Shown: positions 1,896 through 48,421 of the stretch, piece after piece | Position numbering within the stretch: the stretch's first letter is position 1 | How the letters are laid out: each line of letters starts with the position of its first letter | DNA from: Wenzhouxiangellaceae bacterium | Lineage (GTDB): Bacteria > Pseudomonadota > Gammaproteobacteria > Xanthomonadales > Wenzhouxiangellaceae | DNA length: 64,000 nucleotides | Assembly (NCBI GenBank): GCA_965230265.1 | Contig: OZ245999.1 | Span: forward strand, 1,755,158 to 1,819,157 | Reading direction: 5' to 3' | Program-made: the position numbers and the translations under genes | The notes under the pieces: model-generated | What the model was told of the DNA's origin: nothing | The model's input: the letters and a program-made list of their open reading frames with translations, nothing else | Databases searched by the model: none

Positions 1896-2234
1896 ATGAA
1901 CTATACAAACATTGATAATATCTCCGTGGGTACCGTAATTGCCTACGACACAGACACCGGTGAAGTCATCTGGACACATGAAGAAATCATTGAGGTAAAG
2001 GGCGATCAGAAAGAATGCCCCAAGCATATATCGCAAAGCGATTGTGAGCATATCCGGACAACAGCTGAGCAGGTTTTCCCTGGTCGGAAAATTGACACCC
2101 TGATCGCACCAGAGCATTTCACCCTGCGGGAAAATATACGTATCGCGGTTGACCCCGATAAAAAATCGCTTATACAGCAAACAGATAAAAAGCAAAGCCT
2201 GGCTGAACGACTTTCAGCATTTAAACAGGAATAA
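1896..2234 (+). CDS. Hypothetical protein (112 aa)
   Basis: ATG with AGGAAA RBS, 12 nt after the preceding ORF, so probably a two-gene operon. No recognised domain. Confidence 0.4.
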   Translation: MNYTNIDNISVGTVIAYDTDTGEVIWTHEEIIEVKGDQKECPKHISQSDCEHIRTTAEQVFPGRKIDTLIAPEHFTLRENIRIAVDPDKKSLIQQTDKKQSLAERLSAFKQE

Positions 2235-2298
2235 CTCTACCCCTGATAGCACGAGCTGTTTTATACAATCATCTGCCCTGTTATGCTGCCGCAGATGA

Positions 2299-3504: not shown

Positions 3505-3536
3505 TTAAATGAGCGTAATGTAAAGAAACGTCTGAT

Positions 3537-6170
3537 TTATTGTGTAAATACATCCACATAGGTTTTCGCCAGCTCGCGCCAGTCCAGCTTTTGTGCATAT
3601 TTACGGCCAGCGCCCGCCAGCTTTTGGTGCGTTTTAGGCTCGGTCAGTAAACGCATAATATGATCGGCCAGCACATCCCAGTCATCGTCAATATAGGCTT
3701 CCAGCCCAGGTCGTGCCGGTATACCTTCAATCCCCTTACTGGTACTGACCACAGGCACACCACAGGCAAAATAATCAATAATTTTCATGCGTGTCCCGCC
3801 CCCATCCAATAACGGCACCACTGCCACATCTGCCCCTTTCAGATATTCAGCAACTATTTCCACACTGCCAGTGAAATGGACATCTTTATGAATAAAGTCT
3901 TTGGGGATCATTTTCCCAACGGCCATTACCTTAGGTTGCAGGCCGCGTGCATGCAGACGCGGCAATATTTCTGTTGCCATGGTTTTTATCGCCGTTAAAT
4001 TCGGCGGATATTCATAGGTTCCGTGGTATACCAGCACCTTGTCATCTTTATCCCAGCCACATTCGCTGCGTATATCTCTGGGCTGGGCTTTATCAAAAGT
4101 TGTAAGATCCACGCCATGCGGTATCAGGTGCAGCAGTTGGCGTTTAACACCATCGGCTTCCAGTTTTTCACGATCGTTTTCCGATACACAAATGACCGCA
4201 TCAGATAAATTGGCAAAATCAATTTCCAGCCGTTTTAAGCGTTGATATTGATCATCGGTCAGACTGGGTTCCTGGTTTTTAAGGCGCTCGTACTCTACAT
4301 TGTGTTCAACCAGAATCACCTTACCGCCACGAATTCGTTTGGTCAGCCAGCACGGTCGCACATAGGCGGGAAACTCCGCCTGATAGATATTCGCATTAAT
4401 TTTTTTCGCCACATGCAAAGTGCGCCAGGTAAAACTGTTATCACTGAGCGGCATATACAAAAATGCATTGCTGCGTGGTACCTCACGCGCATAGTGCAAT
4501 AACATGCTGAACCGTTCCGGCAGACTGGTGAATTTTTGCCAGAACGGTAATTTCCGCTCATGTCGCTGGCCGTTTTTGTATAACCAATATCGATGCCTTT
4601 CACTGGTGACAATTGCAACATCACGACCCGTTAATGACAAAGCTTTGGCGGTCTCTACAATTTTTACTGCACCACCATGATCAGTGGGATAAATATCCGC
4701 ACGTGTCACAATCACTACATTACCCGGGTGATCGGTTTTCACCTTGCGTGAAAACAACCGGGCCAGACGCACCTCAACAGCACCAATAAGATGCTTGGGC
4801 AATTGTCTCAACGGATAGGGGTAAGGAATACGTGCGCGCAATTGCCGGTACAAACTTCGCACATTGGGTTTACCCAGGCTGCGTTTAGCACTGTACATCA
4901 GATACGGATCAGCATCGGGTGGCAGCGATTCTGATACTGTCACATCTGCAGTAACCAACTCGGATTCTGATGTAGACACCGTGCTTGCAGAAACCTCTGA
5001 TGCCAGCCCTCCGCCTGCTGCTGTTGCATTTTCAGACTGGGCCAGGCGTTGTGTGCGAATCGGGTTACGCAAATAATCCAATAACGGATCAATGCAGTCT
5101 TTGGGCTGAAACTGTTCTTTCACCAACTGCAGAGCGTTGTTGGAACGCCTGCAGAACTCCACTGAATCGCTGGTTATGGCCTGCAAAACGTCAGGTAAAT
5201 CAGCAGGCTTTGACACCGTCCAGCCCGCCTCATAGTCGCGCACATACGCTGCCAGGTTAATAAAATCGTTACAGATAATCGGCATACCATGGCGTAAAAA
5301 CTCCATGGCGCGAAATGATTGGCTGAAATAACGCTCGACATTAAACTCTGCCAGTTCAATACCAATATGTCCTCGCTGCTCCAAAAAACGCGTGTAATCG
5401 GCATAGCTATGCAGGGCCATGCTGTGTACGGCTTCACTCAATTGCAGACCATCGAGCGCGTCTTCACCAACATCCTGAATTTTTGGATAATCGCCGCCGA
5501 ACATTACCAGGTGGGCTTTTTTTTCATTACCGGTATTGTGTTGTTGCAGCCACGTGTCAATCTGATCGATATACCCTTGCTGTATCCGCCACGGCCACTC
5601 TACTCCACCCCCGATCAATAACATGGTTTGATCTGGTGCTGACTTGGATCGATCAGTAGCTGTCTGGGCTGCTATGGGCACCACGCCAACCGGAATGTTA
5701 CTGCGCACATCCAAACCGGCCTGAATCAGATAGGGAATTAATAAATCGGCCTGACGCTGATTGCCCACCAAAAAATAATCTGCACGTGCCAGGCAATCCA
5801 ATAGCTTCTGCAATGATAGATCACGCGTTTCTACTGGCTCATATAAAGCTTCTAACGGCCTGGGCGCAATAAAATCCAGGACCATGGGAATATCAATATC
5901 TGCAGGCAAATCCGCGATTAACATCCAATAACCAAACAAAATCACATCAGGCTGCTGGCTCTCGATATGTCGCACCAGCTCATCGCTGTTGCGATACATA
6001 TTGCGAATATCCGGTACGGGCGATTTATCGTAGGGTTGGCGAAACACCTGTGCGACCTGATGCCCATGCGCTTGCAAAGCCTGCAGCAAATGCGCAGCAC
6101 GTACCATATTGCCACGCGCGGCCAGTTCAGCCTCCAGGGGTGGCTCTAGAGTGATAAAAAGTATTTTCAT
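3537..6170 (-). CDS. Two-domain glycosyltransferase (N-terminal GT-B domain plus C-terminal GT4 family-1 domain)
   Basis: The C-terminal half carries the GT4 signature (…GxxxxEYxxGADVAVVPLLDGGGTRMKIIDYFACGVPVVST…). The N-terminal half is a second GT-B-like Rossmann pair, joined by a Ser/Thr/Ala-rich linker. I re-assigned the start to ATG 6170 (MKILFITLE…), which overlaps the mgtE stop as TAATG. The track's upstream extension to 6413 overlaps mgtE and has no domain. Confidence 0.7.
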   Translation of the reverse strand: MKILFITLEPPLEAELAARGNMVRAAHLLQALQAHGHQVAQVFRQPYDKSPVPDIRNMYRNSDELVRHIESQQPDVILFGYWMLIADLPADIDIPMVLDFIAPRPLEALYEPVETRDLSLQKLLDCLARADYFLVGNQRQADLLIPYLIQAGLDVRSNIPVGVVPIAAQTATDRSKSAPDQTMLLIGGGVEWPWRIQQGYIDQIDTWLQQHNTGNEKKAHLVMFGGDYPKIQDVGEDALDGLQLSEAVHSMALHSYADYTRFLEQRGHIGIELAEFNVERYFSQSFRAMEFLRHGMPIICNDFINLAAYVRDYEAGWTVSKPADLPDVLQAITSDSVEFCRRSNNALQLVKEQFQPKDCIDPLLDYLRNPIRTQRLAQSENATAAGGGLASEVSASTVSTSESELVTADVTVSESLPPDADPYLMYSAKRSLGKPNVRSLYRQLRARIPYPYPLRQLPKHLIGAVEVRLARLFSRKVKTDHPGNVVIVTRADIYPTDHGGAVKIVETAKALSLTGRDVAIVTSERHRYWLYKNGQRHERKLPFWQKFTSLPERFSMLLHYAREVPRSNAFLYMPLSDNSFTWRTLHVAKKINANIYQAEFPAYVRPCWLTKRIRGGKVILVEHNVEYERLKNQEPSLTDDQYQRLKRLEIDFANLSDAVICVSENDREKLEADGVKRQLLHLIPHGVDLTTFDKAQPRDIRSECGWDKDDKVLVYHGTYEYPPNLTAIKTMATEILPRLHARGLQPKVMAVGKMIPKDFIHKDVHFTGSVEIVAEYLKGADVAVVPLLDGGGTRMKIIDYFACGVPVVSTSKGIEGIPARPGLEAYIDDDWDVLADHIMRLLTEPKTHQKLAGAGRKYAQKLDWRELAKTYVDVFTQ

Positions 6171-17755: not shown

Positions 17756-18364
17756 ATGTCTGACACATTGAATGCCGCAGGTCAGCAAGACCTTACAAAG
17801 CTACTAAAAGACTGGAACCACGGTGACGCCTCAGCAGGGGATGTCCTATTCACAGAAATATATCAAGCCTTAAAAGTCATCGCTTCGAACCGGTTACGAG
17901 ATGTCAACGCATCAGTACAAACCACAGAGTTGGTACACGAAGGGTTTTTAGTACTCAGCCAGAAAGCCAGCATCCAGTGGCAAGACAGAAAACATTTTTT
18001 TGCGATCGCGGCCAACGTTATCCGCAGACTATTGGTCGATCGCGCACGAGCCAGTCATGCAGCAAAAAGAGGAGGTGCCAATACTCGGTATATTCCTCTG
18101 GATGATATTCGGCTCCCAGCATGCGATCAACAGATCGATTGGATTGAATTCGACAAAGTATTTCAAGAACTAGAGTCTCTGGACAAAACATTAACCCGCG
18201 TTATGGAGTTACGTTTAATCATGGGGCTAACTGTTCGGGAAACAGCCGATATTCTATTGGTTAGCACAGCAACCATCTCTCGAAAATGGAATTTCGGCCT
18301 GGTGTGGTTGCAAGACCGTATGACAACACCGCCGTTCCCTAAAAGAAACAATATCCAGCATTAG
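17756..18364 (+). CDS. ECF sigma factor of the STK-associated type (Sigma70_ECF, ECF43-like)
   Basis: About 200 aa with sigma region 2/4 organisation. It ends 2 nt before the kinase ATG (TAGtcATG). Confidence 0.75.
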   Translation: MSDTLNAAGQQDLTKLLKDWNHGDASAGDVLFTEIYQALKVIASNRLRDVNASVQTTELVHEGFLVLSQKASIQWQDRKHFFAIAANVIRRLLVDRARASHAAKRGGANTRYIPLDDIRLPACDQQIDWIEFDKVFQELESLDKTLTRVMELRLIMGLTVRETADILLVSTATISRKWNFGLVWLQDRMTTPPFPKRNNIQH

Positions 18365-18366
18365 TC

Positions 18367-21126
18367 ATGACAGAAGAGCATCAACAGCATCCAACCCTGA
18401 GCAATACTCAGTTCCAACAAGCACAACTATTGTTCACACAGGCGAACCAGCTTCCCCATCACCAACGTAACCATTGGCTTGAACAGCAAACAGCTGATCC
18501 TGTAGTCATTGAAAAAGTGCGTCAATTGCTGGACATTTCCAATCAACCCCAACAACACAGTACTCATAAGCCGATATCGGCTATCGATATGCTGGAACTG
18601 GCTTTGATCGAATCAGAATTGGGCAAATACCAGCTGACCAAAAGCCTGGGTGAAGGCGGTATGGGCAGAGTCTATTTAGCCCGCAGAAATGACCAGGCGT
18701 TTGATAAAGACGTTGTCATCAAATTAATGAAGGGCTTCCATAAAAAAGACTCTACCCTTCAGCGCTTTCATTTTGAACGACAAGTACTGGCCAAAATGGA
18801 ACACTCCAATATTGCCAGGCTGCTCGATGGTGGTGAATGCCAGGATGGCACCCCATTTTATGTCATGGAATATGTGGATGGCAGCAACCTTATTGAATAT
18901 TCCCGTCAGCATCAGCTAAATCTTAATCAGCGTCTGGGATTGTTCCAGAAAATCTGTGCTGCTGTTCATTACGCTCATCAGAATCTGATTATTCATCGTG
19001 ATTTAAAGCCCAGCAATATTCTGATAAATCAGGAAGGCGAGCCAAAACTGCTGGATTTTGGCATTGCTAAACGACTCAGTGACGACAGCGCCGCACTGAC
19101 CCAAACCGCCATGCATCCAATGACACCGGCATACTCCAGCCCCGAACAAATACTTGGCAAACATTTAACCACTGCCAGTGATGTTTATTCACTGGGTATG
19201 ATTCTGTTTGAAATCCTTGCTGGACAAAGCCCTTACGATGAGTACAACACTGATCCACTGCGCTTAAAAGTAGCCATCTGTGAGCATGAGCCTGAAGCAC
19301 CATCAAAGCTTAATAGCAGAAGCAAACTTCGCTGGTCTCGCGACCTGGACAATATCGTATTAAAAACACTGCGCAAAGACCCCACCAGGCGTTATCGTTC
19401 TGTGCTGCAATTATCGGATGATATACAGCGCTACCGTGATGGACACCCGGTCAGCGCCAGCCGCAATACCTGGTTATACCGTGGTACTAAATTGCTATTT
19501 CGCCATCGTTGGGCCGCGGCTGGCATATTGCTTGCGGTAGTGTTATTAGCTGCACAACAAATAAGAGTCCTGCAACAGCGCGACCAGGCACAGCTAAATG
19601 CTCAACGAGCAGAGCAAAATCGTGACTTCCTAATTAACATGTTCGACACGCTCGACCCCAATGTTTCACAACAGATTGATATCTCTGCTAAGGCAGTTTT
19701 GGATCATGGTGCCCGTCAATTAGATAATAGTTTGCTTGACCAACCTGAGCTGCGGGCAGAACTAATGACAACCCTGGCCAGTCTTTACCAACAACATGGT
19801 TTATTTCAAGAGGCTGCTACACTGGCCGAAAATGCCATCAACATAAAACAAAGTCTATATCTTGACCAAAGCCCAGAATTAGCAGAAACTCTTAATACCT
19901 TAGCCAATACATATATTCATCAAGGGCTAAATAATAAAGCTTTATCCATCGCCCAAAAATCTCTAAATATTCTTAAACCCCATCAACAGCAATATCTCGA
20001 AGATTATGTATTTGCACTTAATATACTTAGCTTGGCGCACTTGAACAGTGGCCAATTAGAAACATCCAGACAAGTCAGTGAACGAAGTGTCGCTATTGCA
20101 AGAACATTACAAGACAAGAATCCTGAACTGCTCGTAGAAACACTTGAGATATTCGGATTAGCAGACTTTTATCTGGATAACTATAAAGACGCAGAACAAA
20201 CATTCCTGGAGTCTTTAACCATATGCAATAACTACTTAGAGAAAATGCATATCATTCGTGCATCAATTAATAATAACCTGGGATCAGTACTTGCAGAACA
20301 AGGATTGTATGAAAAAGCTGAAGACCATCATCGCCAGGCGCTTGCCATCATCACAAAGACACTGGGTGAAGAGCACCCTGATGTAGCATTTATTCAGAAT
20401 ACGCTTGGCTTATTATTACAGAATACCGGTCGTTTTGAAGAAGCCGAAGCTGCATTTAAGAACAGTTTACAATTAATGGAACAGACCATAGGAACCGAAC
20501 ATACCAAATTCATCACAACGCTCGGAAATTTGGCCCTGCTCTATCGAGAAACCAATAGGCTTGAACAGGCACTGGAATTAGCATACCAAGCACTGGAAAT
20601 TCAACAAAAAATTGCACCCGATAATCTAGATCAGATTGCGATCAGGCAATATGTGGTCGCGCTGACACTATCAGCCTTGCAGCGATTTGAACTTGCTGAG
20701 CAAATGTACTTAACAGTCATAGCTATATGGATTAACACACGTGGTAAAAACAGTAATGATTTAGCCACGGCACGCTCCAGCCTTGCCACCATGCTTGCGC
20801 GTCAAGAGAAATACCCTCAAGCAGAAATGCAAATGCGTTCGGCATTGGTTATTTATCAGCAAAAGTTAGCACCGGAACATTGGCATATCGCGGTAGTAAA
20901 CTATAGTTTAGGCAATATAGTTATGCAGCAGGGTCGATTTGGAGAAGCTGAATCACTGCTAGTGCCCGCTTGTGATCGATTGTTCGAAGCAAAGTCAATC
21001 CAGTCCAGATACACTAGAAATTGTTATAAATTTATCATCGAATTATACCGAAAAACTGATCGCTTAGCGGAAGCTGAGCCGTATCAAAAACAATTGGATA
21101 ACACTGAGTCTGGTCAGCTCGGCTAA
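18367..21126 (+). CDS. Serine/threonine protein kinase with transmembrane segment and C-terminal TPR repeats
   Basis: Hanks kinase motifs 'GEGGMGRVY', 'VIK', 'HRDLKPSNIL' and 'DFGIAK…APE'. A single TM helix 'AAAGILLAVVLLAA' is followed by about 500 aa of TPR repeats. Confidence 0.9.
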   Translation: MTEEHQQHPTLSNTQFQQAQLLFTQANQLPHHQRNHWLEQQTADPVVIEKVRQLLDISNQPQQHSTHKPISAIDMLELALIESELGKYQLTKSLGEGGMGRVYLARRNDQAFDKDVVIKLMKGFHKKDSTLQRFHFERQVLAKMEHSNIARLLDGGECQDGTPFYVMEYVDGSNLIEYSRQHQLNLNQRLGLFQKICAAVHYAHQNLIIHRDLKPSNILINQEGEPKLLDFGIAKRLSDDSAALTQTAMHPMTPAYSSPEQILGKHLTTASDVYSLGMILFEILAGQSPYDEYNTDPLRLKVAICEHEPEAPSKLNSRSKLRWSRDLDNIVLKTLRKDPTRRYRSVLQLSDDIQRYRDGHPVSASRNTWLYRGTKLLFRHRWAAAGILLAVVLLAAQQIRVLQQRDQAQLNAQRAEQNRDFLINMFDTLDPNVSQQIDISAKAVLDHGARQLDNSLLDQPELRAELMTTLASLYQQHGLFQEAATLAENAINIKQSLYLDQSPELAETLNTLANTYIHQGLNNKALSIAQKSLNILKPHQQQYLEDYVFALNILSLAHLNSGQLETSRQVSERSVAIARTLQDKNPELLVETLEIFGLADFYLDNYKDAEQTFLESLTICNNYLEKMHIIRASINNNLGSVLAEQGLYEKAEDHHRQALAIITKTLGEEHPDVAFIQNTLGLLLQNTGRFEEAEAAFKNSLQLMEQTIGTEHTKFITTLGNLALLYRETNRLEQALELAYQALEIQQKIAPDNLDQIAIRQYVVALTLSALQRFELAEQMYLTVIAIWINTRGKNSNDLATARSSLATMLARQEKYPQAEMQMRSALVIYQQKLAPEHWHIAVVNYSLGNIVMQQGRFGEAESLLVPACDRLFEAKSIQSRYTRNCYKFIIELYRKTDRLAEAEPYQKQLDNTESGQLG

Positions 21127-24161: not shown

Positions 24162-24665
24162 TTAGCCTAGCACTTTGTTCCATTGATCCACGCGATCCTG
24201 AACCATGGCATATACACTAGCGGTATCGCCTTCAATGGTGACACTGTCAATTGAATCACCCTGGGCGATGCTATTGACCACATCCTGGTCAGCCTGGCTA
24301 ACGACTTCACCAAATACAGTGTGTTTACCATCCAGCCATGGTGTCGGTTCATGAGTAATAAAAAACTGACTGCCATTGGTGCCTGGCCCGGCATTGGCCA
24401 TAGACAGCTTACCAGGCGCATCATGACGCAAGTCAGTATCTACTTCATCTTCAAAACGGTAACCCGGACTGCCTGCACCTGTGCCGTTAGGGCATCCACC
24501 CTGAATCATAAAATTAGGAATAACACGGTGGAAATTGAGGTTATCGTAAAAACCTTTTTCAACCAGGTTACAAAAATTTGCTACGGTCAATGGTGTTTTG
24601 TCTGCATGCAACTTAAGGTTAATCGGACCTTTGCTGGTTTGCATTACTGCAGTTAAATCGCTCAT
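24162..24665 (-). CDS. ppiB: Peptidyl-prolyl cis-trans isomerase B (cyclophilin type)
   Basis: Carries '[15 protein letters not shown]', '[22 protein letters not shown]' and related cyclophilin motifs. Confidence 0.9.
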
Positions 24666-24771
24666 GTAAACTCCTTGATTGATATTGGATAGGCAAACGA
24701 CGGATTTTACCTGAAATCATCACCATGAGTAATGATTATGGTATTAACCTTCTTTTAATCACCGTAACCCA

Positions 24772-26013
24772 TTACGGGCTGCTACAAGTCCAACTTGAAG
24801 TGTCCCCCGACTCAAAACCGTCTGCAAAAAAGTTCTCTCCAATGCGTGTGTTAATCACGGTATCATTATTAGGGCCTGCGGTAATGTATCTCGTATCAAA
24901 ACTTTTACTGTTGGTCCTGTGTACAACACACCCATCAACGGGCCCACCAAACCCTTGTGCTGGATACTCAGGGTCAATACTTACTAGCCCACCAACAAAG
25001 GGGTCTTCAACAATGAAATAATCCCCCCACAAGACATTGGTTTTTAACGAGTTATCGTTTTCATCAACAATACCTACCAAAGCACCACTTTGGAAATTAA
25101 AAAACATACCGTTATTATCGATAGTTCCCAAATTGCCAGTGGTGAATAAGCCAGGGTTATCTATAGGAATATTCGCAGTCCGTGCATCGCCATCGGCATT
25201 ATAAGTGAAGCGCACCTGCATACCTGATGCGGTATCAATCACAATACCGCCAGACTCCCTGACAAAAGTAAACCCAGCAGGCGGAGGTAAATTGACTATA
25301 TCGGTATCGGTTCGGCTGGGCGGGTTATTTGTAGTGCTAAAAGTACTTACCCGCACCATGCCATTATCCAACTGATACAAACTGGCCGCATCACCATGGT
25401 GATTCATTGCCAGTTGGTCGCGTACCGCACCATCAAACGGGCCACTGATCGTTCTTCCAGGACCACCTGTAATGGTTTCATAAATACTCCAGTTCAACCC
25501 ACCATTGATAGAAAGAAAAATCAGCAGTGAGTCATTGGTATCATTATGTGCACTGACAAAAATACCCTGTTCAGAGGTGGCGCAATCAGCGCTATCAAAA
25601 TTATCGGTTTGCGTAAATGGAATGGAAAGCGTTGACCAGCTGGAACCATTAAAGCGGGCATACTCAACATTAAAATTATCAATATAAGGCGCTACCACCA
25701 CATTGCCTTCGGTGCATAAATCACCCAGAGAAAACAATGTTGCAGAGTTATCCAGAGCGGTTGTCATTAAGCCTGTGCCATCATACGGTGGGGGCATCAT
25801 TAGAGCATCGAGCCGATTATTTGCTCCATCATTCCATAAAACAATACCGGCAAGATGAGGGTCTGGAATATCTTCCAACACCCCCAGCTTCGCTTCTAAT
25901 GGGAGCTCATCAAAAACGGTCACAGAAGTCCAGCCATTACCCGTACTGACCACACCAGAATTAACTGCAGATACGCATAACAACAAAACCAGCAAACAAA
26001 AAACTTTCATCAC
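24772..26013 (-). CDS. Secreted protein with BNR/Asp-box-like repeats and a conserved C-terminal GENFFxDGFE tail
   Basis: Strong AGGAGG RBS and signal peptide. It has Asp-box-like 'SINGGLNW' and a C-terminus '…GENFFADGFESGDTSSWTCSSP'. Confidence 0.55.
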   Translation of the reverse strand: MMKVFCLLVLLLCVSAVNSGVVSTGNGWTSVTVFDELPLEAKLGVLEDIPDPHLAGIVLWNDGANNRLDALMMPPPYDGTGLMTTALDNSATLFSLGDLCTEGNVVVAPYIDNFNVEYARFNGSSWSTLSIPFTQTDNFDSADCATSEQGIFVSAHNDTNDSLLIFLSINGGLNWSIYETITGGPGRTISGPFDGAVRDQLAMNHHGDAASLYQLDNGMVRVSTFSTTNNPPSRTDTDIVNLPPPAGFTFVRESGGIVIDTASGMQVRFTYNADGDARTANIPIDNPGLFTTGNLGTIDNNGMFFNFQSGALVGIVDENDNSLKTNVLWGDYFIVEDPFVGGLVSIDPEYPAQGFGGPVDGCVVHRTNSKSFDTRYITAGPNNDTVINTRIGENFFADGFESGDTSSWTCSSP

Positions 26014-26292
26014 AAACCTCCTGGCATCAGGAAACGAAGCCCCTTTTCATGATTGTGTTGTTTGTTATGCTTTCCAAAACAATACGCCGATGCATCAATC
26101 AATGCAAAGGGTCGATGGTCAAAAACCATAATACCAATAAAGTATTAACTTTATTTATCAAATACTTGGAAGGTTTATTTATAAATTATAATTAATATGA
26201 AATACGACCAATGAATATGCTGCTGATGTATTCACTGGATAAACACAAGCAGGACATTACGCCTGCTTGTGTCGCGAGCCTACAGCTATCAT

Positions 26293-27780
26293 TTAAATAA
26301 TAGAGTCATCCTCAACTTGCTCGGCTTCGATCCACTCAAATTCAACATCAGGCTGTACTTCATCTTCATCGGTGCTGAACTCAAAATGCAGCCCGTTGAT
26401 AAAGCCATCTTCCATCAGCACCTCAAAGTCATTGCTTAAAGCCTCACCCAGCTCCCCAGAGAAATCCTTTAATAAACCCAGGCTTTCCAAGTCGTCCAGA
26501 TCCATCTCGCTTAAAGCTTCTAAGCCTTTTATCTGAAAGCCACCACTTAAATCCAGGCCTTCAAGCGCTTTGAACATTTTATGCCCTTTCAGCATACTCA
26601 GACTTTTAAAAGGGTGTGAGCTTTCCGGCACTTCGAAACTGACTTCAATGTCATCGCGGTCACGCAAAATTTCAAGCGTTACCGTTTCACTGGTGTCGTA
26701 GGAACGTAAGATACGAAAAGCATGGTGTGGGTCATTTGGCTTACGACCATTAATTCGCATCAACACGTCGCCACCACGTATATCAGCCGGAAAAAAATCA
26801 TCGGGCACGCTGATGACTAACAACCCTTCACTGGTACCGAAATACCGTCCCAGATCAGGATTTAAATTGACCAGCTCCAACCCACCAACAAAACTGCCGC
26901 CAAGAGCATTAAAAATCACATTGGGCGCAGTTGGTGCCAGAGGTGCATTCTCTGGTAGAGGTGCCAATGGTGCAATCGGCGCGAAACTTTGCGGTGAGCG
27001 CCGTTCTGCCACCAGCACCGCATCGTCAATCACGCCATCACGCTGATACTCCAGGTTGACTTCATCACCTGGTTCCAGTTCTGACATGACTTCCAATACC
27101 TTACCGGCCGGACTGTCCAATTGAGTATCATCCAGGCGTACATCATTAATAGCCAATAAAATATCTTTGGATTGCAAACCGGCTTGATCAGCCGGGCCAC
27201 CAGGGCTAACCGAATTAATGCGCACACCTGTTTGTTCATCGTTGTCAGAAATACTCACACCTAACATAGCGCGGTTGGCATCTCTCAAAAAGCGAAAAGC
27301 GTAGCCACGTGCCGGCGTTAGGTCAGCTGATAGTTCAGCGACTTTATTGGCGGCAGCCCGCAACTCTTCACGCGCACTCTCGTAGTCAGCTCGTGCTCGC
27401 TCCCTATCCTGGCGGGCCCGTTCACGTTGTTGCTCTGCCTGTTCTCGCACTTGTGCTGCCTGTTCGCGAGCCTGTTGCTGATTTTGCACCTGCAGCATCC
27501 GTGCTTGATGAGCCTGCTCTCGATCTGTCATGACCTGCTGGCGCATCTGCTGCACTCTGACATGCTGCTCAGCACGAGCGTCTGCCAGTGCTTCATGGCG
27601 ACGTTTTAGTTGTTCACGAGCCTGTTGGTGTATTGCCGCCTGATGCGCTAACAGCGCTTGCCGCTGCTCAGCTTCATGTTGGACATGGCCACCATCTTGA
27701 GCCATTGATGGTGCTGAAAGCACCGTCGCCAAAGCGATGACCCATACACTGCTAATATTTAGAATCGTCCTGTCTGTCAT
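26293..27780 (-). CDS. Periplasmic coiled-coil protein with two PDZ domains and no protease domain
   Basis: Signal peptide, then a Q/R/E-rich heptad region. Two PDZ-like modules ('GVSISDNDEQTGVRINSVSPGGPADQAGLQSKDILLAIND' and 'GLLVISVPDDFFPADIRGGDVLMRINGRKP') are followed by an acidic C-terminus. Confidence 0.7.
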   Translation of the reverse strand: MTDRTILNISSVWVIALATVLSAPSMAQDGGHVQHEAEQRQALLAHQAAIHQQAREQLKRRHEALADARAEQHVRVQQMRQQVMTDREQAHQARMLQVQNQQQAREQAAQVREQAEQQRERARQDRERARADYESAREELRAAANKVAELSADLTPARGYAFRFLRDANRAMLGVSISDNDEQTGVRINSVSPGGPADQAGLQSKDILLAINDVRLDDTQLDSPAGKVLEVMSELEPGDEVNLEYQRDGVIDDAVLVAERRSPQSFAPIAPLAPLPENAPLAPTAPNVIFNALGGSFVGGLELVNLNPDLGRYFGTSEGLLVISVPDDFFPADIRGGDVLMRINGRKPNDPHHAFRILRSYDTSETVTLEILRDRDDIEVSFEVPESSHPFKSLSMLKGHKMFKALEGLDLSGGFQIKGLEALSEMDLDDLESLGLLKDFSGELGEALSNDFEVLMEDGFINGLHFEFSTDEDEVQPDVEFEWIEAEQVEDDSII

Positions 27781-27851
27781 GCGTTTGCCTCATTAAGATA
27801 ATCAATAAAATAAATGAGTGGTGATTAAAAAATTACCCGGTTGTTTTCCGG

Positions 27852-28568
27852 TTAAATCTGCTGGTTCAATAGGCTGGTTGTATCAGTATCCAGCTCGGTA
27901 TCTGAACTGGCTCTCAAACCGCCATAACGCCCGGCGTATTGATTGATCAGCAATTCACTCAGTAACGCGACCCGCTGTTGCCATAGGCCGGTACGTTCAT
28001 TGCTGATCAACTCATTGTCTCCAACCGAGTTACGGCTGACTTCCGAGGCTGCTATTTGTAAATCCACAAAAGCAATCATACGTTCTAGCTCATCGGTGGT
28101 GACTGCCTGATAGCCGGATAACACCTGCCCGTTGTCTTGTTGTCGCAATGCCCTAAGCGTGTTTTCCAAAAACTGTGAGCGCTCAACCAGTTGCCGTAGA
28201 TGCTCACCGCCCTGTTCCACTACCTGCACTGGTTGCGGGGAAATGCTTAACGGTGGCCGATAAAACACCACCGAAATCACCACCAGCAATGCTGCCGCAA
28301 TACCAATCCATTCATCAGCACGCAACCAGCCATGGCTGGCTTTACGTTTCCTGATGCTTGCAGGGCCAGCGAGGGTGTCATGATTCAACTGCTGTGATAT
28401 CTGCTCCCAACCGGCAGTTTCTGGAACCGCCTTCAGCGGCAGACCCTGTAAGGCCGTTTTCAATCCTCGCAGGGATTGCAGCTCATCATCACCAGAGAGG
28501 AAGTCCTGCAAAGCTTTGGTGGAATCAGCGGTCGATGGCTTGCTTGATGAATGGGTAGGCTTGTTCAT
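27852..28568 (-). CDS. Single-pass membrane anti-sigma factor (putative)
   Basis: Its start overlaps the sigma gene's stop (ATGA). About 90 aa of cytoplasmic N-terminal region is followed by one TM helix 'WIGIAAALLVVISVVFY' and a periplasmic C-domain. Confidence 0.5.
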   Translation of the reverse strand: MNKPTHSSSKPSTADSTKALQDFLSGDDELQSLRGLKTALQGLPLKAVPETAGWEQISQQLNHDTLAGPASIRKRKASHGWLRADEWIGIAAALLVVISVVFYRPPLSISPQPVQVVEQGGEHLRQLVERSQFLENTLRALRQQDNGQVLSGYQAVTTDELERMIAFVDLQIAASEVSRNSVGDNELISNERTGLWQQRVALLSELLINQYAGRYGGLRASSDTELDTDTTSLLNQQI

Positions 28569-29254
28569 GAATTTGCCTCAAACAGCACATTGCTGTTCAG
28601 ATGATGATTTTGGGGTGATGGGTGAGCTGACACTGATCCAGTATTTGATTCGGACTCAGATGGGGATGGACCCAATAGTTCTCTTAATTGAATATGCGCT
28701 CTTGCCAGACGAGATTTGGAAAAACTGACACTGCGGTCCATCAACTGTGCCACTTCGGCATGCGTATAACCTTCTACATGGTATAACCAAACCACCATCC
28801 GCGATAAACCCGGCAGTTTCTGCAAAGCCACCTCCAGTTCATTGCACTGGGTATATTGGGTGGCCTTTAACGAACTGGCTAACTCCGGGCTATGCAAGGC
28901 ATCTTCCATATCAACCTCTATACCTCGGCGCTTGTCAGAACGCATTCTCATTAAAGCAGTGGTACTGACAATTGTTCGCAGCCAACACCAAAATGGTGCA
29001 TCGCTACGGTATTGATACAAACATTTAAAGCATTTCACAAAACTGTCCTGCATCACATCCTGAGCATCCGCCTGGTGACACAACAGCCGCAGCGCCAGGT
29101 TATACACCTGCCTGGAATATCTTTGATACAACCACTGCATTGCTACCTGATCACCTGTTTGAGCCTGAAAAATCATATCCTGCTCTTGCTGTTGGTGGTT
29201 ATCTGTTGCTGTCGGTGGTTTTTTGGAAGCTTCTGAACCCAAGCACCCGCTCAC
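28565..29254 (-). CDS. ECF (sigma-24-like) RNA polymerase sigma factor
   Basis: Sigma region 2 ('…YxxLxxxALRLLxxxxDAQDVMQDSFVK…') and region 4 HTH ('…GYTHAEVAQLMDRSVSFSKSRLARA'). The start may instead be the internal MIFQAQ at 29176. Confidence 0.8.
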   Translation of the reverse strand: MSGCLGSEASKKPPTATDNHQQQEQDMIFQAQTGDQVAMQWLYQRYSRQVYNLALRLLCHQADAQDVMQDSFVKCFKCLYQYRSDAPFWCWLRTIVSTTALMRMRSDKRRGIEVDMEDALHSPELASSLKATQYTQCNELEVALQKLPGLSRMVVWLYHVEGYTHAEVAQLMDRSVSFSKSRLARAHIQLRELLGPSPSESESNTGSVSAHPSPQNHHLNSNVLFEANS

Positions 29255-29416: not shown

Positions 29417-31324
29417 TCACCCCCCATTGGACCAAAGATAAACCAGCGCCAGACAGGCCAGCGCATTATTGATGGCATGCAAAAGGATACTCGGCATCAG
29501 GCTTTTAGAGTGCTTGACAAAATACCCGGCAACCAAACCCAATGCCGTATAAAAGATAAATAACTGGGTATCCTCATGGACCAGCGCAAACAGCACCGCT
29601 TGGATACTGTTTGCCCAGAAAAAGTTCAGGTGCTTAGACAACGCCGATAACAGCACACCTCTAAACAACAACTCTTCAACAATCGGCGTAATCACCGCCA
29701 CCGACAACAGCATTGCCCACAGCCCATACAAATTGTAAATGGACTGAACAGATTCTTCGGTGAATGTTTGGTTGGTTTGCCCAATACCGGCAGCACCTGC
29801 AGTAAAACCTTCTGCCAATACTGCCACCACTCGCAAGCAAATATACAAAACCAGTGACAAGCCAACACTCTTGCCCCAGGACCATTCGCCCGTATCAAAC
29901 AATCGCCAATTACCTCTGGCTACTAGCAACACAGCAGCCAGCATACAAACATCCACAAAGAACAGTGTGTGCGCTTTTGCCTGCTGAGTTAGCTCATCGG
30001 CTGACCATTCAATATCCGGGAGAAATAACGATGCAAGCTCTGGGTATGACCAGATATACAAGGTAATAAAGTCAACCAACAGATAGACCGTCAATAACCA
30101 CCATGCATGCTTCAGGTTCCAGGTCCCGATAAATGCATTGGTCTGCCAACCTTTGCGCTGTTTCAATAAGCTGCGGTAATGAACCGGCAGGATTAATACC
30201 AGTGGGATAGCCGCGCAAAACAACAGCAATAACACCCAGTTCAGTGACCATAGAAAATCTTTGACAGTAAAAGCAATTTCAGGGAAAACTCGCTTGAGTT
30301 GCCAACGGTAATACAACAATGGATCACTGCTATAACCTTGCTGGCGGTACAGCTGGTATACCTGGTTGGCTTGCTCTGGGTACGGTTGCTGTAAAGCAAA
30401 CTCCAGAAGCGCTTTGCCACTTTTGAGCGGGTCATAGTTATCTTGCAAATAACTCGACATGGCATCCAGGGCTTGCTGCTGTTTACCCTGCGCCATATAT
30501 AGACGTATCAGATCATCATTTGATGGCGTTATGCCATAGTCGGCCTGCATGGTTTGATACAGCGTTTCAGCTTCACCCAGATACCCATGGTTAACCAAGT
30601 GTTCAAACGCCAGACGCGTTGTCCAATTATTGTCATCGTTGTATTGCAAAGAAGAAAGGATATCCAGCGCCTGCGGGGCCTCACCGATAGAGAAATAATA
30701 CTTGGCGGCCCTTACCCCTTCGTACACCATTGATCGATCCAGCTCATAGGCTTCTGCTGCCAGCTTGCCGGCCAACTCATCATCCAGCCAGCTGGTGTTA
30801 TCAGCAGCCGCAATTGTGTAGCGGTTGATTTGTTCGTTACTCCATCCGGAAATATCGGCAGATTGCCATTGCCGATAAATTTCCAGCGCATCTTCCCCAT
30901 AAGCGGTCTCTATATTCCGGATATCAATTTCCGGGTGTTCTGGGTAAGCCTCTTGTATTTGCTCAAAACAATCCGTGTTGATGTCTTCTGCGGCTTGAAC
31001 CCATGTATAGCCCTCATCGTTATAAGCAAACAATGCCGCCAGACGACAACGCTCGATCTGAACCGCTACCGTGTCCCTCTCGGGGTTATCTTGAATATAG
31101 ACTTCATAGGCCCGGTTAGCGTGGTTATAAAAGTTTTCGCTATCCTGTTCAGCCTGCTGATAAAGGCGTTCAGCACTGCCTGTTCCAAGGTCAATACTTT
31201 GTGCTGCTATTGATACACTGACAAGGCAAACAAAGCCGCCCACCATCAATGGCAAAAAGCAGTCAATAAAACGGGCCATCTGGCGGGTGAAAACCATGAT
31301 CATAGATAAGCAGGTGTCAATCAA
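29417..31324 (-). CDS. CPBP-family (CAAX/PrsW-type, Abi) intramembrane metalloprotease with N-terminal TPR-like domain
   Basis: The C-terminal membrane domain carries the CPBP motifs 'EELLFRG', 'FALVHE' and 'HAINN'. The N-terminal ~350 aa is TPR-like and helical. Confidence 0.7.
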   Translation of the reverse strand: MIDTCLSMIMVFTRQMARFIDCFLPLMVGGFVCLVSVSIAAQSIDLGTGSAERLYQQAEQDSENFYNHANRAYEVYIQDNPERDTVAVQIERCRLAALFAYNDEGYTWVQAAEDINTDCFEQIQEAYPEHPEIDIRNIETAYGEDALEIYRQWQSADISGWSNEQINRYTIAAADNTSWLDDELAGKLAAEAYELDRSMVYEGVRAAKYYFSIGEAPQALDILSSLQYNDDNNWTTRLAFEHLVNHGYLGEAETLYQTMQADYGITPSNDDLIRLYMAQGKQQQALDAMSSYLQDNYDPLKSGKALLEFALQQPYPEQANQVYQLYRQQGYSSDPLLYYRWQLKRVFPEIAFTVKDFLWSLNWVLLLLFCAAIPLVLILPVHYRSLLKQRKGWQTNAFIGTWNLKHAWWLLTVYLLVDFITLYIWSYPELASLFLPDIEWSADELTQQAKAHTLFFVDVCMLAAVLLVARGNWRLFDTGEWSWGKSVGLSLVLYICLRVVAVLAEGFTAGAAGIGQTNQTFTEESVQSIYNLYGLWAMLLSVAVITPIVEELLFRGVLLSALSKHLNFFWANSIQAVLFALVHEDTQLFIFYTALGLVAGYFVKHSKSLMPSILLHAINNALACLALVYLWSNGG

Positions 31325-46976: not shown

Positions 46977-48203
46977 CTATAATGGTGGGCAGACAATGCT
47001 TTGCCCCTCAAAGCCATTGTCCAGCAATGTCTCTATTACCACACTGCCCAGCAGTAGATAGTCGCTACCACCAAATACGCCAAGGTAAAGATCTACCGCA
47101 CCATCACGATTGACATCTCTGGCTTCAATATCAATACCGCTGCCTGTGGCTGTTGCCGGTAAAACCTGATCAGTGGCTTCGGTATAATTACCTACCCCAT
47201 CATTTAGCATTGCCTGGAAAGTGCCGTCAAAAGCCGTGGCAAACAATAAGTCCAGATCGTTATCACCATCAACATCCAGAAAGTCCGCATCCACCGAGTT
47301 AATATTAAACGCCGGCAGTGATGCCGCACTGATATCTGTAAACCCACCACAGCCATTGTTTCGTAATAACCGGTTGCGACCAGTGCTGCCTGCAGCAAAA
47401 CTCACATTGGCCAAGACCAGATCCAAATCACCATCGTTGTCGATATCGCCAAGATCAGCTTCACGGGTTTCTTCGCCAGCCACTAATGGAAAATTCCCCG
47501 CTGCTGTATCGCTAAACACACCACTGCCATTGTTCAGCCATAGACGGTTACCATTTTCGTTACCAACCACTATGTCAATATCACCATCACTATCAACATC
47601 GCCTGCCTCCAGATCCTGAGTAATCTCATTATTTACTGGCAAGCGTGCTGCTGTTTGATCAGCAAAGACGCCATTCCCATCATTGATCAGTAAAACATTG
47701 GCACCCGCATTACCAATCATAATGTCCAGATCGTTATCATGATCCAGATCCGCGGCCAATACTGCATTGGAGGTTCTGGTAACACCCAGTCTGGCCGTTT
47801 CATCCGTGTAGCTGCCATTGCCTGCATTGAAATACAGTTCATTGATCTGGTCATCTTCTGCAACAAACAACACATCCGGGTCGTTATCACGATCATAGTC
47901 AGCAATGGCAATATCCTCACTATCATGCGAAGGCTGTGGTTGTGGAAATGCAGCATCTGAGGCATCGCTGAAAATACCATTGCCATCATTGATCAGCAGG
48001 ATATTGGTACAAAATTCACAGGCAATAAAAATATCCAGATCACCATCAGCATCGACATCCGCCATTTCCACATCCATGCTATTGCCTGCTAATGCAGCCA
48101 ATGGCAAATGAGTAGCAGATACATCGGTATAAATTGAACCACAGTAGCCGTTGACTGCAGCTGACAACAGCAGCATGAGCATGTATCTCCAATAGTGCTG
48201 CAT
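46977..48203 (-). CDS. Secreted FG-GAP / VCBS repeat (integrin-alpha-like beta-propeller) protein
   Basis: At least 6 repeats of 'D(V/L)DxDGDxDIxxxN' Ca-binding FG-GAP blades. I re-assigned the start to ATG 48203 (GGAG RBS, signal peptide MQHYWRYMLMLLLSAA). Confidence 0.7.
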   Translation of the reverse strand: MQHYWRYMLMLLLSAAVNGYCGSIYTDVSATHLPLAALAGNSMDVEMADVDADGDLDIFIACEFCTNILLINDGNGIFSDASDAAFPQPQPSHDSEDIAIADYDRDNDPDVLFVAEDDQINELYFNAGNGSYTDETARLGVTRTSNAVLAADLDHDNDLDIMIGNAGANVLLINDGNGVFADQTAARLPVNNEITQDLEAGDVDSDGDIDIVVGNENGNRLWLNNGSGVFSDTAAGNFPLVAGEETREADLGDIDNDGDLDLVLANVSFAAGSTGRNRLLRNNGCGGFTDISAASLPAFNINSVDADFLDVDGDNDLDLLFATAFDGTFQAMLNDGVGNYTEATDQVLPATATGSGIDIEARDVNRDGAVDLYLGVFGGSDYLLLGSVVIETLLDNGFEGQSIVCPPL

Positions 48204-48421
48204 CTTATAGCTCCAAATAAACCCGTTTAATGGTAATGCTGCCAGATTTTCCATTCCAATAATAGGGACTTCTTAAGGAAACCCATCACCCCTGATAATG
48301 ACTTTGATGAGTCTGAAAACATCACCGCTATCGTGTCTTATGATGATACGCCTAAAAACTGGTTGCATTGATATACGAAAATGTTAGTATTAAGCCACTT
48401 CATTACCAGGGAAAATACATT

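What the first reader, a model, noticed from the sequence alone, without database searches (positions are those of the whole stretch)
24772..24840. Conserved C-terminal 'GENFFxDGFE' tail shared by two unlinked secreted BNR/Asp-box proteins (first copy)
The protein from 24772..26013 ends '…GENFFADGFESGDTSSWTCSSP', and the protein from 55279..56997 ends '…GENFFIDGFEDIIVPPQSN'. The 10-residue core is near-identical, although the proteins are 30 kb apart and otherwise dissimilar. A short conserved C-terminal tag on otherwise unrelated secreted proteins is the hallmark of a sorting or processing signal (compare PEP-CTERM, GlyGly-CTERM, LPXTG). I do not recognise this motif as a named sorting signal.
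Basis: seen in the sequence. Interest (0 to 1): 0.55.

Follow-up and report, generated by a model that had tools for sequence, protein, structure and literature searches.

The report
Unnamed FxDGFE tail on secreted proteins
Three unrelated exported proteins in this window end in the same short peptide (…F‑x‑D‑G‑F‑E…), and the same tail ends thousands of unrelated exported proteins in Acidobacteria and Xanthomonas‑like bacteria; it behaves like a portable label that no searched database names, and what reads it is unknown.

Summary
P1 (24772..26013, −) and P2 (55279..56997, +) share GENFFxDGFE 9–12 residues before the stop, and this is their only significant similarity. A third exported protein, P3 (46977..48254, −), ends …LLDNGFEGQSIVCPPL.

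The tail is conserved by selection on the protein, not the DNA. It is kept in orthologues down to 34% identity. AlphaFold2 places it outside the folded β‑propeller of both P1 and P2.

It is a portable module. The long form is φF‑x‑DGFESGDTSAWS‑x‑x‑VP‑stop; the short form is φF‑x‑DGFE plus 0–11 residues. A profile of the long form matched 8,301 protein clusters, counting both free tails and domain starts. Tails sit on unrelated folds in diderm bacteria. Some P2 homologues carry a T9SS sorting domain at that position instead.

The same motif is also the first strand of a roughly 200‑residue jelly‑roll‑like C‑terminal domain. The free tail is a distinct subtype of it.

No Pfam or NCBIfam model and no searched paper covers it. 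It lacks the transmembrane helix and basic cluster of PEP‑CTERM‑type signals, and no partner gene is linked. Reading it as a tag is supported. Sorting, cleavage or docking is not shown.

The parts
24775..24840 (-). P1 tail, GENFFADGFESGDTSSWTCSSP. This is the long, T-type form, with Cys in place of the usual penultimate Val.
   Evidence: Orthologues end [ILV]F.DGFESGD.S.W...C[PNE]. Predicted pLDDT is 52/48/32 for the last three blocks of ten residues.
24772..26013 (-). P1 gene: a 413-aa (412 from the ATG) signal-peptide protein with a sialidase-like β-propeller body.
   Evidence: It has no Pfam hit.
56938..56994 (+). P2 tail, GENFFIDGFEDIIVPPQSN. This is the short form: the core followed by a Pro-containing end.
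   Evidence: pLDDT is 51–54 for residues 551–572.
55279..56997 (+). P2 gene: a 572-aa signal-peptide BNR/sialidase-family β-propeller protein.
   Evidence: BNR_2, E=9.8e-9; P0046, 100% identical.
46980..47027 (-). P3 tail, LLDNGFEGQSIVCPPL. This is a probable short-form copy with the NGFE variant of the core.
   Evidence: The NGFE variant also occurs in P2-family tails. My own rough estimate for a chance match within 20 residues of a C-terminus among about 60 window proteins is 0.004. Orthologues were not examined.
46977..48254 (-). P3 gene: a 425-aa signal-peptide FG-GAP/VCBS repeat protein.
   Evidence: (FG-GAP_3, E=1.1e-48).

Best explanation
What is shown. The tail is an autonomous peptide module under selection, appended to Sec-exported proteins of diderm bacteria. 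It is 8–20 residues long. The core is φ-F-x-[DN]-G-F-E. The long form continues S-G-D-T-S-A-W-S-x-x-V-P. It is a specialised free-standing derivative of the first β-strand or hairpin of a roughly 200-residue jelly-roll-like C-terminal domain.

What is inferred. After export and folding the tail stays on the protein as an exposed, flexible end whose terminal proline shields it from exopeptidases. It is read in trans by an envelope or surface component, as an address or docking label for export across, or retention at, the outer membrane. The most likely way it is read is by adding its β-strand to a partner. It is not an exosortase- or sortase-type signal that is anchored in the membrane and then cleaved.
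For: **Modularity and spread**
- The tail is kept in P1 orthologues down to 34% identity.
- 65 of the 120 best P2 homologues carry it. It also sits after extra domains and occurs in tandem.
- In the tail-profile search, 106 of the top 120 hits have exactly 12 residues after GFE and then the stop, with unrelated upstream sequences.
- In reference genomes, 102 of 131 motif matches are terminal.
- A profile of the long form matched 8,301 protein clusters at E≤1e-3; this count mixes free tails with domain starts.
- Carriers include FG-GAP, BNR, S8, M14 and M28 peptidases, MAM, β-helix and cytochrome proteins.

**Selection at protein level**
- Synonymous sites differ between the two window copies.
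- The tail is at least as conserved as the folded body: 0.68 against 0.61 in the P1 family, and 0.69 against 0.66 for the core in the P2 family.

**Not part of the fold**
- Both AlphaFold2 models give low confidence for the tail and high confidence for the body.

**Swapped with known anchors**
- P2 homologues carry T9SS type A sorting domains or other C-terminal domains at the same position.

**Retained rather than cleaved**
- Pro is the last residue in 55 of 65 tails with exactly 12 residues after GFE.
- Tandem copies are spaced 21–24 residues apart.
- Copies occur inside low-complexity linkers and just after a signal peptide.

**Origin in a strand of a larger domain**
- In 29 of 131 matches the motif continues for more than 29 residues, in most cases into a domain of about 190–290 residues.
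- 74 of the 80 best relatives of that domain start with the motif.
- The residue after SGD is Thr in 75 of 102 tails but hydrophobic in 22 of 29 continuing copies. The free tail therefore has its own constraints.

**Taxa**
- Tail-only copies were seen only in taxa known to be diderm, or in MAGs without a named phylum. The domain form also occurs in monoderms and archaea.

**Lead for strand addition**
- In locus L068, a separately secreted protein consisting of that domain without its first strand lies just downstream of a tail-bearing gene.
Against: - No reader, partner or processing enzyme was found.
- Neighbours of tail genes are not conserved.
- The strand-less 'receptor' is a single case. 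It was not seen among the best 80 of 492 relatives of the domain or in the window.
- There is no experimental evidence on localisation or on the mature C-termini.
- AlphaFold2 low confidence does not prove that the tail is free. In the P1 family a conserved tail Cys and a fourth conserved Cys (C361) suggest the tail can be stapled to the body.
- All three window carriers, and about a third of the sampled carriers, are β-propellers. This leaves room for an intramolecular role.
Confidence: 0.45

Rival explanations
1. Cleaved sorting signal. A dedicated transpeptidase or protease recognises FxDGFE, removes the tail, and anchors or releases the protein. This would be analogous to exosortase, rhombosortase, sortase or the T9SS PorU.
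For: - It is a C-terminal tag on many unrelated exported proteins.
- It replaces T9SS sorting domains in homologues.
- It was seen only in diderm or unassigned taxa.
- In one case (L119) the tail is followed by a hydrophobic helix and a basic end.
Against: - Almost all copies lack a transmembrane helix and basic cluster; the stop follows within 0–12 residues.
- Tandem copies and copies inside linkers occur.
- The end is capped by proline.
- No candidate enzyme is linked.
- No NCBIfam sorting-domain model hits it.
Confidence: 0.2
2. Intramolecular structural element. The tail folds back on its own protein, for example as an extra edge strand or closure of a β-propeller, and in the P1 family it is fixed by a disulfide.
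For: - All three window carriers are β-propellers, and propellers are frequent among carriers.
- The P1 family has four conserved Cys, including one in the tail.
- The motif weakly resembles a WD-type blade hairpin (E=0.43, not significant).
Against: - AlphaFold2 does not pack the tail in P1 or P2.
- Carriers include unrelated folds: S8, M14 and M28 peptidases, β-helix, cytochromes.
- The tail follows Gly-rich or Pro-rich linkers, occurs in tandem, sits inside linkers and occurs right after signal peptides.
Confidence: 0.12
3. Protective cap. The tail is a small proline-ended hairpin that shields exoproteins from carboxypeptidases and tail-specific proteases in protease-rich secretomes. No specific reader is involved.
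For: - Pro is the last residue in 55 of 65 tails with exactly 12 residues after GFE.
- Short forms have Pro-rich ends.
- Many carriers are peptidases.
Against: - A cap would not need an almost invariant F-x-DGFE-SG-D-T-S-x-W sequence across phyla.
- Some copies end exactly at ...GFE with no proline.
- Internal copies exist.
Confidence: 0.1
4. Functionless relic. The tails are what is left after repeated truncation of the jelly-roll-like C-terminal domain.
For: - The motif is the first strand of that domain.
- One protein (P0287) ends in what looks like an interrupted third domain copy.
Against: - There is a sharp length peak: 65 of 131 matches have exactly 12 residues after GFE, and the ending is conserved, with VP in 36 of those 65.
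- The tails have their own residue preference, Thr in place of a hydrophobic residue.
- The tail is conserved across orthologues at least as well as the folded body.
- Tandem copies occur.
Confidence: 0.06

Closest known systems
PEP-CTERM/exosortase, GlyGly-CTERM/rhombosortase, MYXO-CTERM and LPXTG/sortase sorting signals
   Same: A short conserved motif at the C-terminus of many otherwise unrelated signal-peptide proteins, with the genes scattered around the genome.
   Different: Those signals are a motif followed by a transmembrane helix and a basic cluster, and each co-occurs with a dedicated enzyme. Here the stop codon follows the motif within 0–12 residues. No enzyme is known. Tandem and internal copies exist.
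T9SS C-terminal sorting domain (Por_Secre_tail, PF18962 / TIGR04183)
   Same: A C-terminal signal without a transmembrane segment on Sec-exported proteins. It occupies the same position in some homologues of P2.
   Different: The T9SS domain is a folded β-sandwich of about 70–100 residues, mainly in Bacteroidota (from my own knowledge). The tail is an 8–20 residue peptide found mainly in Acidobacteriota and Lysobacterales. PF18962 does not hit P1 or P2.
'Choice-of-anchor' protein families (an NCBIfam naming concept)
   Same: The P2 family behaves this way: one conserved body with alternative C-terminal ends. These are the FxDGFE tail, a T9SS domain, Cys-rich knots and a CxPQxIGxCP domain. One member is named a choice-of-anchor J protein by its source.
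   Different: The FxDGFE tail is not among the anchors for which the searched libraries hold a model.
First β-strand of an unnamed C-terminal jelly-roll-like domain of about 200 residues (two kinds; one has a weak hit to PF14099 Polysacc_lyase)
   Same: It has the identical motif, φF-x-DGFESG-x-x-S-x-W. This is almost certainly the evolutionary source of the tail.
   Different: In the domain the motif is followed by about 190–290 residues, and the residue after SGD is hydrophobic. In the tail it is Thr, and the chain stops 12 residues after GFE, usually with VP. The fold of the domain was not modelled here. Calling it jelly-roll or ConA-like rests on the weak PF14099 hit and on my own knowledge of F-x-D-x-F-E...W first strands.
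Non-covalent docking tags (dockerin–cohesin) and strand-donation systems (chaperone–usher donor strand, split-domain tags such as SpyTag)
   Same: This is only an analogy for the proposed mechanism: a short terminal module, sometimes duplicated, that could be read by strand addition to a partner.
   Different: No partner has been identified. Dockerins are Ca-binding modules of about 70 residues. Nothing here shows binding.

Membership tests
PEP-CTERM / GlyGly-CTERM / MYXO-CTERM / IPTL-CTERM class (exosortase, rhombosortase and myxosortase substrates) | A signature motif followed by a hydrophobic transmembrane helix and a cluster of basic residues at the extreme C-terminus. | tested here: not met
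   P1 has 12 residues after GFE, P2 has 9 and P3 has 9. None is a hydrophobic stretch or a basic cluster. The same holds for 102 of 131 genome matches.
PEP-CTERM / GlyGly-CTERM / MYXO-CTERM / IPTL-CTERM class | A match to the curated NCBIfam/TIGRFAM sorting-domain HMM. | tested here: not met
   NCBIfam release 20 at E≤1 gives no sorting-domain hit for P1, P2, P3 or the consensus tail P0173.
PEP-CTERM / GlyGly-CTERM / MYXO-CTERM / IPTL-CTERM class | Co-occurrence with the cognate processing enzyme in the same genome. | not testable with these tools
   Only 64 kb of the genome is available. The window holds an Rce1-like CPBP protease (29417..31324), but no link to the tail was shown and it is not a conserved neighbour.
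LPXTG / sortase | An LPXTG-like pentapeptide followed by a hydrophobic segment and a charged tail. | tested here: not met
   Direct reading of the three C-termini shows none of these.
T9SS C-terminal sorting domain | A folded C-terminal domain of about 70–100 residues matching PF18962 / TIGR04183. | tested here: not met
   There is no Pfam or NCBIfam hit in P1 or P2. Only about 20 residues follow the last strand of the propeller. Some homologues of P2 do carry PF18962 in place of the tail.
Jelly-roll-like C-terminal domain starting with F.DGFESG..S.W (unnamed) | The motif followed by the rest of the domain, including the YRARFYFDPN and YYFDAFES strands of kind (b), or the G.YAA region of kind (a). 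| tested here: not met
   HMMs of both kinds match only positions 2–19 (the motif) in the window, in P1 and nowhere else.
Free FxDGFE tail module (defined here) | The core φ-F-x-[DN]-G-F-E lies within about 20 residues of the C-terminus of a signal-peptide protein. It is conserved in orthologues and lies outside the folded domain. | tested here: met
   P1 and P2 meet this. P3 meets the sequence criteria only; its orthologues and structure were not examined.

The most novel reading that the evidence does not exclude
The tail is the orphan first strand of a split jelly-roll domain. Exported proteins carrying it dock, by strand complementation, into separately secreted or envelope-anchored 'receptor' domains that lack that strand. 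The protein encoded at L068 2209..2871, next to a tail-bearing gene, would be one such receptor. This would give diderm bacteria a natural split-domain tag system for displaying or routing exoproteins.
Probability: 0.1. Interest if true: 0.85.

Novelty: new variant of a known kind. Interest (0 to 1): 0.6.

Why it matters
C-terminal tags have repeatedly led to the discovery of new envelope machinery, including exosortases, rhombosortase and the T9SS. This tail ends unrelated exoproteins across two phyla whose secretomes are poorly understood: Acidobacteriota, and marine or predatory Lysobacterales. A profile of it matched 8,301 protein clusters, although that count also includes copies that start the larger domain.

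It has no model in Pfam or NCBIfam, so its carriers are currently annotated without it.

If it is an address or docking label, it gives three things:
- a handle for predicting the surface or secreted proteome of these groups;
- a bait for finding the unknown reader;
- a possible small natural tag for protein display.

If it proves to be only a structural cap, the practical gain is a new annotation model and a cautionary example.

Tried and rejected
- **DNA repeat, mobile element or gene conversion as the source of the similarity.** Rejected. Synonymous sites differ and the flanks are unrelated.
- **Last strand of a shared globular domain.** Not supported by the two AlphaFold2 models. BLASTP shows no other similarity between the bodies.
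- **A linked partner gene.**
  - Clustering of 2,773 ORFs from 120 tail-containing loci gave only Ser/Thr kinases (17 loci) and ECF sigma factors (8 loci) as recurrent neighbours. By my rough estimate this is about the background density for Acidobacteria.
  - The PDZ protein and ECF sigma factor upstream of P1 are not kept in Marinicella litoralis or Dokdonella. Only the downstream cyclophilin is kept, and only in M. litoralis.
- **CAAX-like reading of P1's ...CSSP end, given the nearby Rce1-like protease.** Rejected. In orthologues the Cys lies 0–4 residues from the end.
- **Search for strand-less 'receptor' domains.** There is one case (L068). None was found in the window or among the best 80 of 492 metagenomic relatives. 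That list is biased towards consensus-like domains.
- **Literature.** No paper contains DGFESG. Papers containing the other strings searched (GFESGD, xDGFE variants, 'DGFE') were all irrelevant. No paper combined Marinicella with C-terminal sorting.
- **Solved structures.** There is no sequence relative of the tail or of the parent domain in the PDB.
- **Tail-only query to the large protein database.** I used a tail+tail concatenation instead. This favours short fragments and tandem copies in its top list.
Full report
**1. The observation**

The ORF at 24772..26013 (−) is called P1 here. It is 413 aa and ends …RIGENFFADGFESGDTSSWTCSSP. The ORF at 55279..56997 (+), P2, is 572 aa and ends …ELGENFFIDGFEDIIVPPQSN.

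A six-frame regex places the ten-residue core at 24811..24840 (−) and 56938..56967 (+), 12 and 9 residues before the stops. Both proteins start with a typical signal peptide: MMKVFCLLVLLLCVSAVNSG… and MKNSCLLLLLIFAFVFNAQA….

BLASTP of P1 against P2 returns the tail as the only alignment with E<0.01 (E=0.003). The strict motif is expected about 1e-6 times by chance in the window (my own rough estimate).

The two DNA copies share 21 of 30 bases. Six of the nine codons for identical residues differ at the synonymous position, and the DNA after the stops is unrelated. The similarity is therefore kept by selection on the peptide. It is not a repeated DNA element or a recent conversion.

The same relaxed regex found one further hit in the whole window, and it too lies 9 residues before the stop of a long signal-peptide ORF. 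This is P3, 46977..48254 (−), an FG-GAP/VCBS repeat protein ending …VVIETLLDNGFEGQSIVCPPL.

**2. The carriers**

- P1 has no Pfam or NCBIfam family. Its AlphaFold2 model (mean pLDDT 86.9) is a β-propeller. Its best PDB matches by Foldseek are bacterial and human sialidases and other propellers.
- P2 is a BNR/sialidase-family propeller.
- P3 is an FG-GAP propeller.

All three are exported propellers without detectable sequence relationship to each other.

Identical proteins sit on a 3.6-Mb contig. The named relatives are Marinicella species, Dokdonella and Wenzhouxiangellaceae, which places it in or near the order Lysobacterales.

**3. The tail is conserved and lies outside the fold**

Of the 45 homologues of P1 (34–78% identical, one outlier at 28%), nearly all full-length ones end in [ILV]F-x-DGFESGD-x-S-x-W-x(1–3)-C-[PNE].

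Mean conservation of the last 22 residues is 0.68, against 0.61 for the body. In the P2 family the core scores 0.69 against 0.66, and F, D, G, F, E score 0.79–1.0.

Both models nevertheless give the tail low confidence:
- P1: blocks of 52, 48 and 32, against about 90 for the body.
- P2: 54, 53 and 51 after the last propeller strand at residues 542–547.

One caveat applies. The P1 family has four conserved cysteines: C99, C143, C361 and the tail Cys C411. In that family the tail may be tied to the body by a disulfide. The Cys replaces the Val of the usual …VP ending.

**4. It is a portable module**

Among the 120 best homologues of P2, 65 end in the tail. There are two forms:
- A long form, φF-x-DGFESG[DN]TSAWS-x-x-VP, with exactly 12 residues after GFE.
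- A short form, φφ-x-DGFE plus 0–11 often Pro-rich residues. This form includes the window's P2, and some proteins end exactly at …GFE.

Other observations in the same family:
- The tail also follows extra domains, separated by a Gly-rich linker (P0112, P0128, P0135, P0160, P0161).
- It occurs twice in tandem (P0091, P0053, P0061, P0065, P0075).
- Other homologues have, at the same place, a T9SS type A sorting domain (PF18962), Cys-rich knots, or a domain ending CxPQxIGxCP. This is the 'choice-of-anchor' pattern.

A profile made from tails alone found 2,215 proteins at E≤10 in the word-indexed database. In 106 of the top 120, exactly 12 residues follow GFE before the stop, and the upstream sequences are unrelated to each other.

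A full HMMER scan of 1.84 billion representative proteins gave 8,301 clusters at E≤1e-3. This count includes copies that begin the larger domain described in section 5.

Of these, 65 have exactly 12 residues after GFE and 102 have 29 or fewer. Several genomes contributed three to five loci even in this truncated scan.

Sixty-three complete carriers from those loci belong to many families: FG-GAP, BNR, sortilin-like, S8, M14 and M28 peptidases, trypsin-like peptidases, peptidyl-arginine deiminase, MAM, β-helix, multihaem cytochromes and glucose dehydrogenase. At least half have a recognisable signal peptide. That is a lower bound, because start codons are over-called in these GC-rich genomes.

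**5. Where the motif comes from**

In 29 of the 131 genome matches the chain continues for more than 29 residues. Several of these are only low-complexity or anchor extensions (L050, L055, L119). In most of the others, and in the multi-copy proteins that head the representative search (copies spaced 190–300 residues), the motif is the first strand of a C-terminal domain of about 190–290 residues. Two kinds exist.
- Kind (a): …SAWSGGSGLAVQQS…G-x-YAA…. It has a weak hit to Polysacc_lyase PF14099.
- Kind (b): …SAWSS-x-VTDGGDLSVS…YRARFYFDPNS…GTYYFDAFESRR-x-YIGP. It has no Pfam, NCBIfam or PDB relative.

A metagenome scan with kind (b), trimmed of its first strand, found 492 relatives. Of the best 80, 74 carry the motif directly after a Pro/Thr-rich linker, and the rest have slight variants or are cut by a contig end. 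The strand is therefore an integral part of that domain.

I call the domain jelly-roll or ConA-like on the basis of the weak Pfam hit and the general F-x-D-x-F-E…W signature of such first strands (my own knowledge). It was not modelled here.

The free tail is not simply a truncated domain:
- The residue after SGD is Thr in 75 of 102 tails, but hydrophobic (F, L, V, M, I, Y) in 22 of 29 continuing copies.
- Pro is the last residue in 55 of 65 tails with exactly 12 residues after GFE, and VP ends 36 of them.
- The Thr-type module also occurs as a stand-alone unit between low-complexity linkers of giant proteins, sometimes twice (P0293, P0308, P0323).
- It occurs directly after a signal peptide (P0383, P0180, P0226).
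- It occurs once in front of a hydrophobic helix with a basic end (L119).

Tail-only copies were seen in Thermoanaerobaculia (including Multivoradales), Holophagae, Lysobacterales, Kangiella, Polyangiaceae, a deltaproteobacterial MAG, Crocinitomicaceae, and sponge-associated or other MAGs with no named phylum. All the named taxa are diderms. The domain form also occurs in Actinomycetota, Chloroflexota, Armatimonadota, candidate phyla radiation bacteria and archaea.

**6. Surroundings**

On the minus strand, P1 follows an ECF sigma factor (28565..29254), an unassigned 238-aa ORF (27852..28568) and a two-PDZ protein (26293..27780). A cyclophilin (24162..24665) follows P1.

In Marinicella litoralis only the cyclophilin is kept next to the orthologue. 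In Dokdonella none of these neighbours is kept.

P2 lies between a MipA outer-membrane protein and a DUF4124/pilin-like protein. P3 lies next to a DEAD-box helicase and a Sel1 protein.

Clustering all ORFs of the 120 tail loci shows only Ser/Thr kinases (17 loci) and ECF sigma factors (8 loci) as recurrent neighbours. I estimate this to be about the background density in Acidobacteria. So no dedicated partner gene is linked. This is also typical of the substrates of known sorting systems.

**7. How it most likely works**

Shown: the tail is a selected, portable, terminal or linker-embedded peptide on exported proteins, and it is not predicted as part of the fold.

Inferred: it stays on the mature protein. 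The proline cap, the tandem copies and the linker copies all point that way. It is then read in trans, as an address or docking label at the outer membrane or cell surface.

The only element common to all forms is one amphipathic strand, φF-x-DGFE, which in its parent domain pairs with other strands. The simplest reading mechanism is therefore β-strand addition to a partner.

One concrete lead exists. In the Polyangiaceae locus L068, a tail-bearing haem protein (3106..4035, −) is followed by a separate gene (2209..2871, −). That gene encodes a signal peptide followed directly by kind-(b) domain positions 21–202. It is the domain without its first strand. This is one case only.

The rival explanations are weighed in the structured fields: a cleaved sorting signal, an intramolecular strand, a protease-protective cap and a functionless relic.

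**8. Comparison and novelty**

In distribution the tail behaves like the C-terminal sorting tags. It fails their defining features: there is no transmembrane helix or basic cluster, no HMM hit and no known enzyme. It is far smaller than a T9SS domain.

No Pfam-A or NCBIfam (release 20) model covers it, including when the 31-residue consensus protein P0173 is scanned alone. No solved structure contains it. No paper in the searched library contains the sequence DGFESG, and the papers holding the shorter strings were irrelevant.

I rate it a new variant of a known kind, namely C-terminal tags of exported proteins. Its function is undetermined.

Confidence is about 0.85 that it is a real, selected, portable module. 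Confidence is about 0.45 in the fuller statement that it is a retained tag read in trans.

Noticed in passing
window 46977..48254 (−): A third signal-peptide protein, an FG-GAP/VCBS propeller, ends in a short-form tail, ...LLDNGFEGQSIVCPPL.
   Followed up: partly
window 24162..29254 (−): A co-directional string of genes: ECF sigma factor (28565..29254), an unassigned 238-aa ORF that may be an anti-sigma factor, a protein with a Gln/Arg/Glu-rich N-terminal half followed by PDZ domains (two matched stretches), P1, and a cyclophilin. Only the cyclophilin stays next to the P1 orthologue in Marinicella litoralis.
   Followed up: partly
window 17756..21126 (+): An ECF sigma factor (PF07638) is followed directly by a 919-aa Ser/Thr kinase with TPR repeats. 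The same kind of pair lies near tail-bearing genes in Acidobacteria loci: kinases in 17 and sigma factors in 8 of 120 loci. This is probably background density or shared regulation.
   Followed up: partly
window 29417..31324 (−): A 635-aa protein whose last 90 or so residues match the Rce1-like CAAX/CPBP intramembrane protease family; the roughly 530 residues before that are unassigned. It lies 3.4 kb upstream of P1, whose tail ends C-S-S-P. The Cys position varies among orthologues, so a CAAX-type link is unlikely.
   Followed up: partly
L068 2209..2871 (−), Polyangiaceae MAG: A separately encoded secreted protein consisting of the jelly-roll-like domain without its first (FxDGFE) strand. It lies immediately downstream of a tail-bearing haem protein (3106..4035).
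   Followed up: partly
L119, Holophagae MAG (match at about 5483..5521, − strand): A single case in which the tail is followed by 41 residues containing a hydrophobic helix and a basic end (...TVIPALFGDGPLVNGMLLVLMVAGAAVMRLKER). This resembles a membrane-anchored sorting domain placed after the tail.
   Followed up: no
P2 homologues P0087, P0096, P0098–P0101, P0109 and others: An alternative C-terminal extension of about 110–160 residues ends in a conserved ...EGSYG...ER...C-x-PQ-x-IG-x-CP. Other homologues end in Cys-rich knot-like domains. Neither was identified.
   Followed up: no
P1 family alignment A1: There are four conserved cysteines: C99, C143, C361 and the tail Cys C411. The tail Cys takes the place of the Val in the usual ...VP ending, which suggests a family-specific disulfide tying the tail to the propeller.
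   Followed up: partly
window 57187..57765 (+): A small exported protein combines an N-terminal DUF4124 domain with a pilin-like C-terminal half (PF00114, E=1e-10). It lies just downstream of P2.
   Followed up: no
window 61112..63997 (−): A fused MeaB-like GTPase and methylmalonyl-CoA mutase domain protein (961 aa). This looks ordinary.
   Followed up: no
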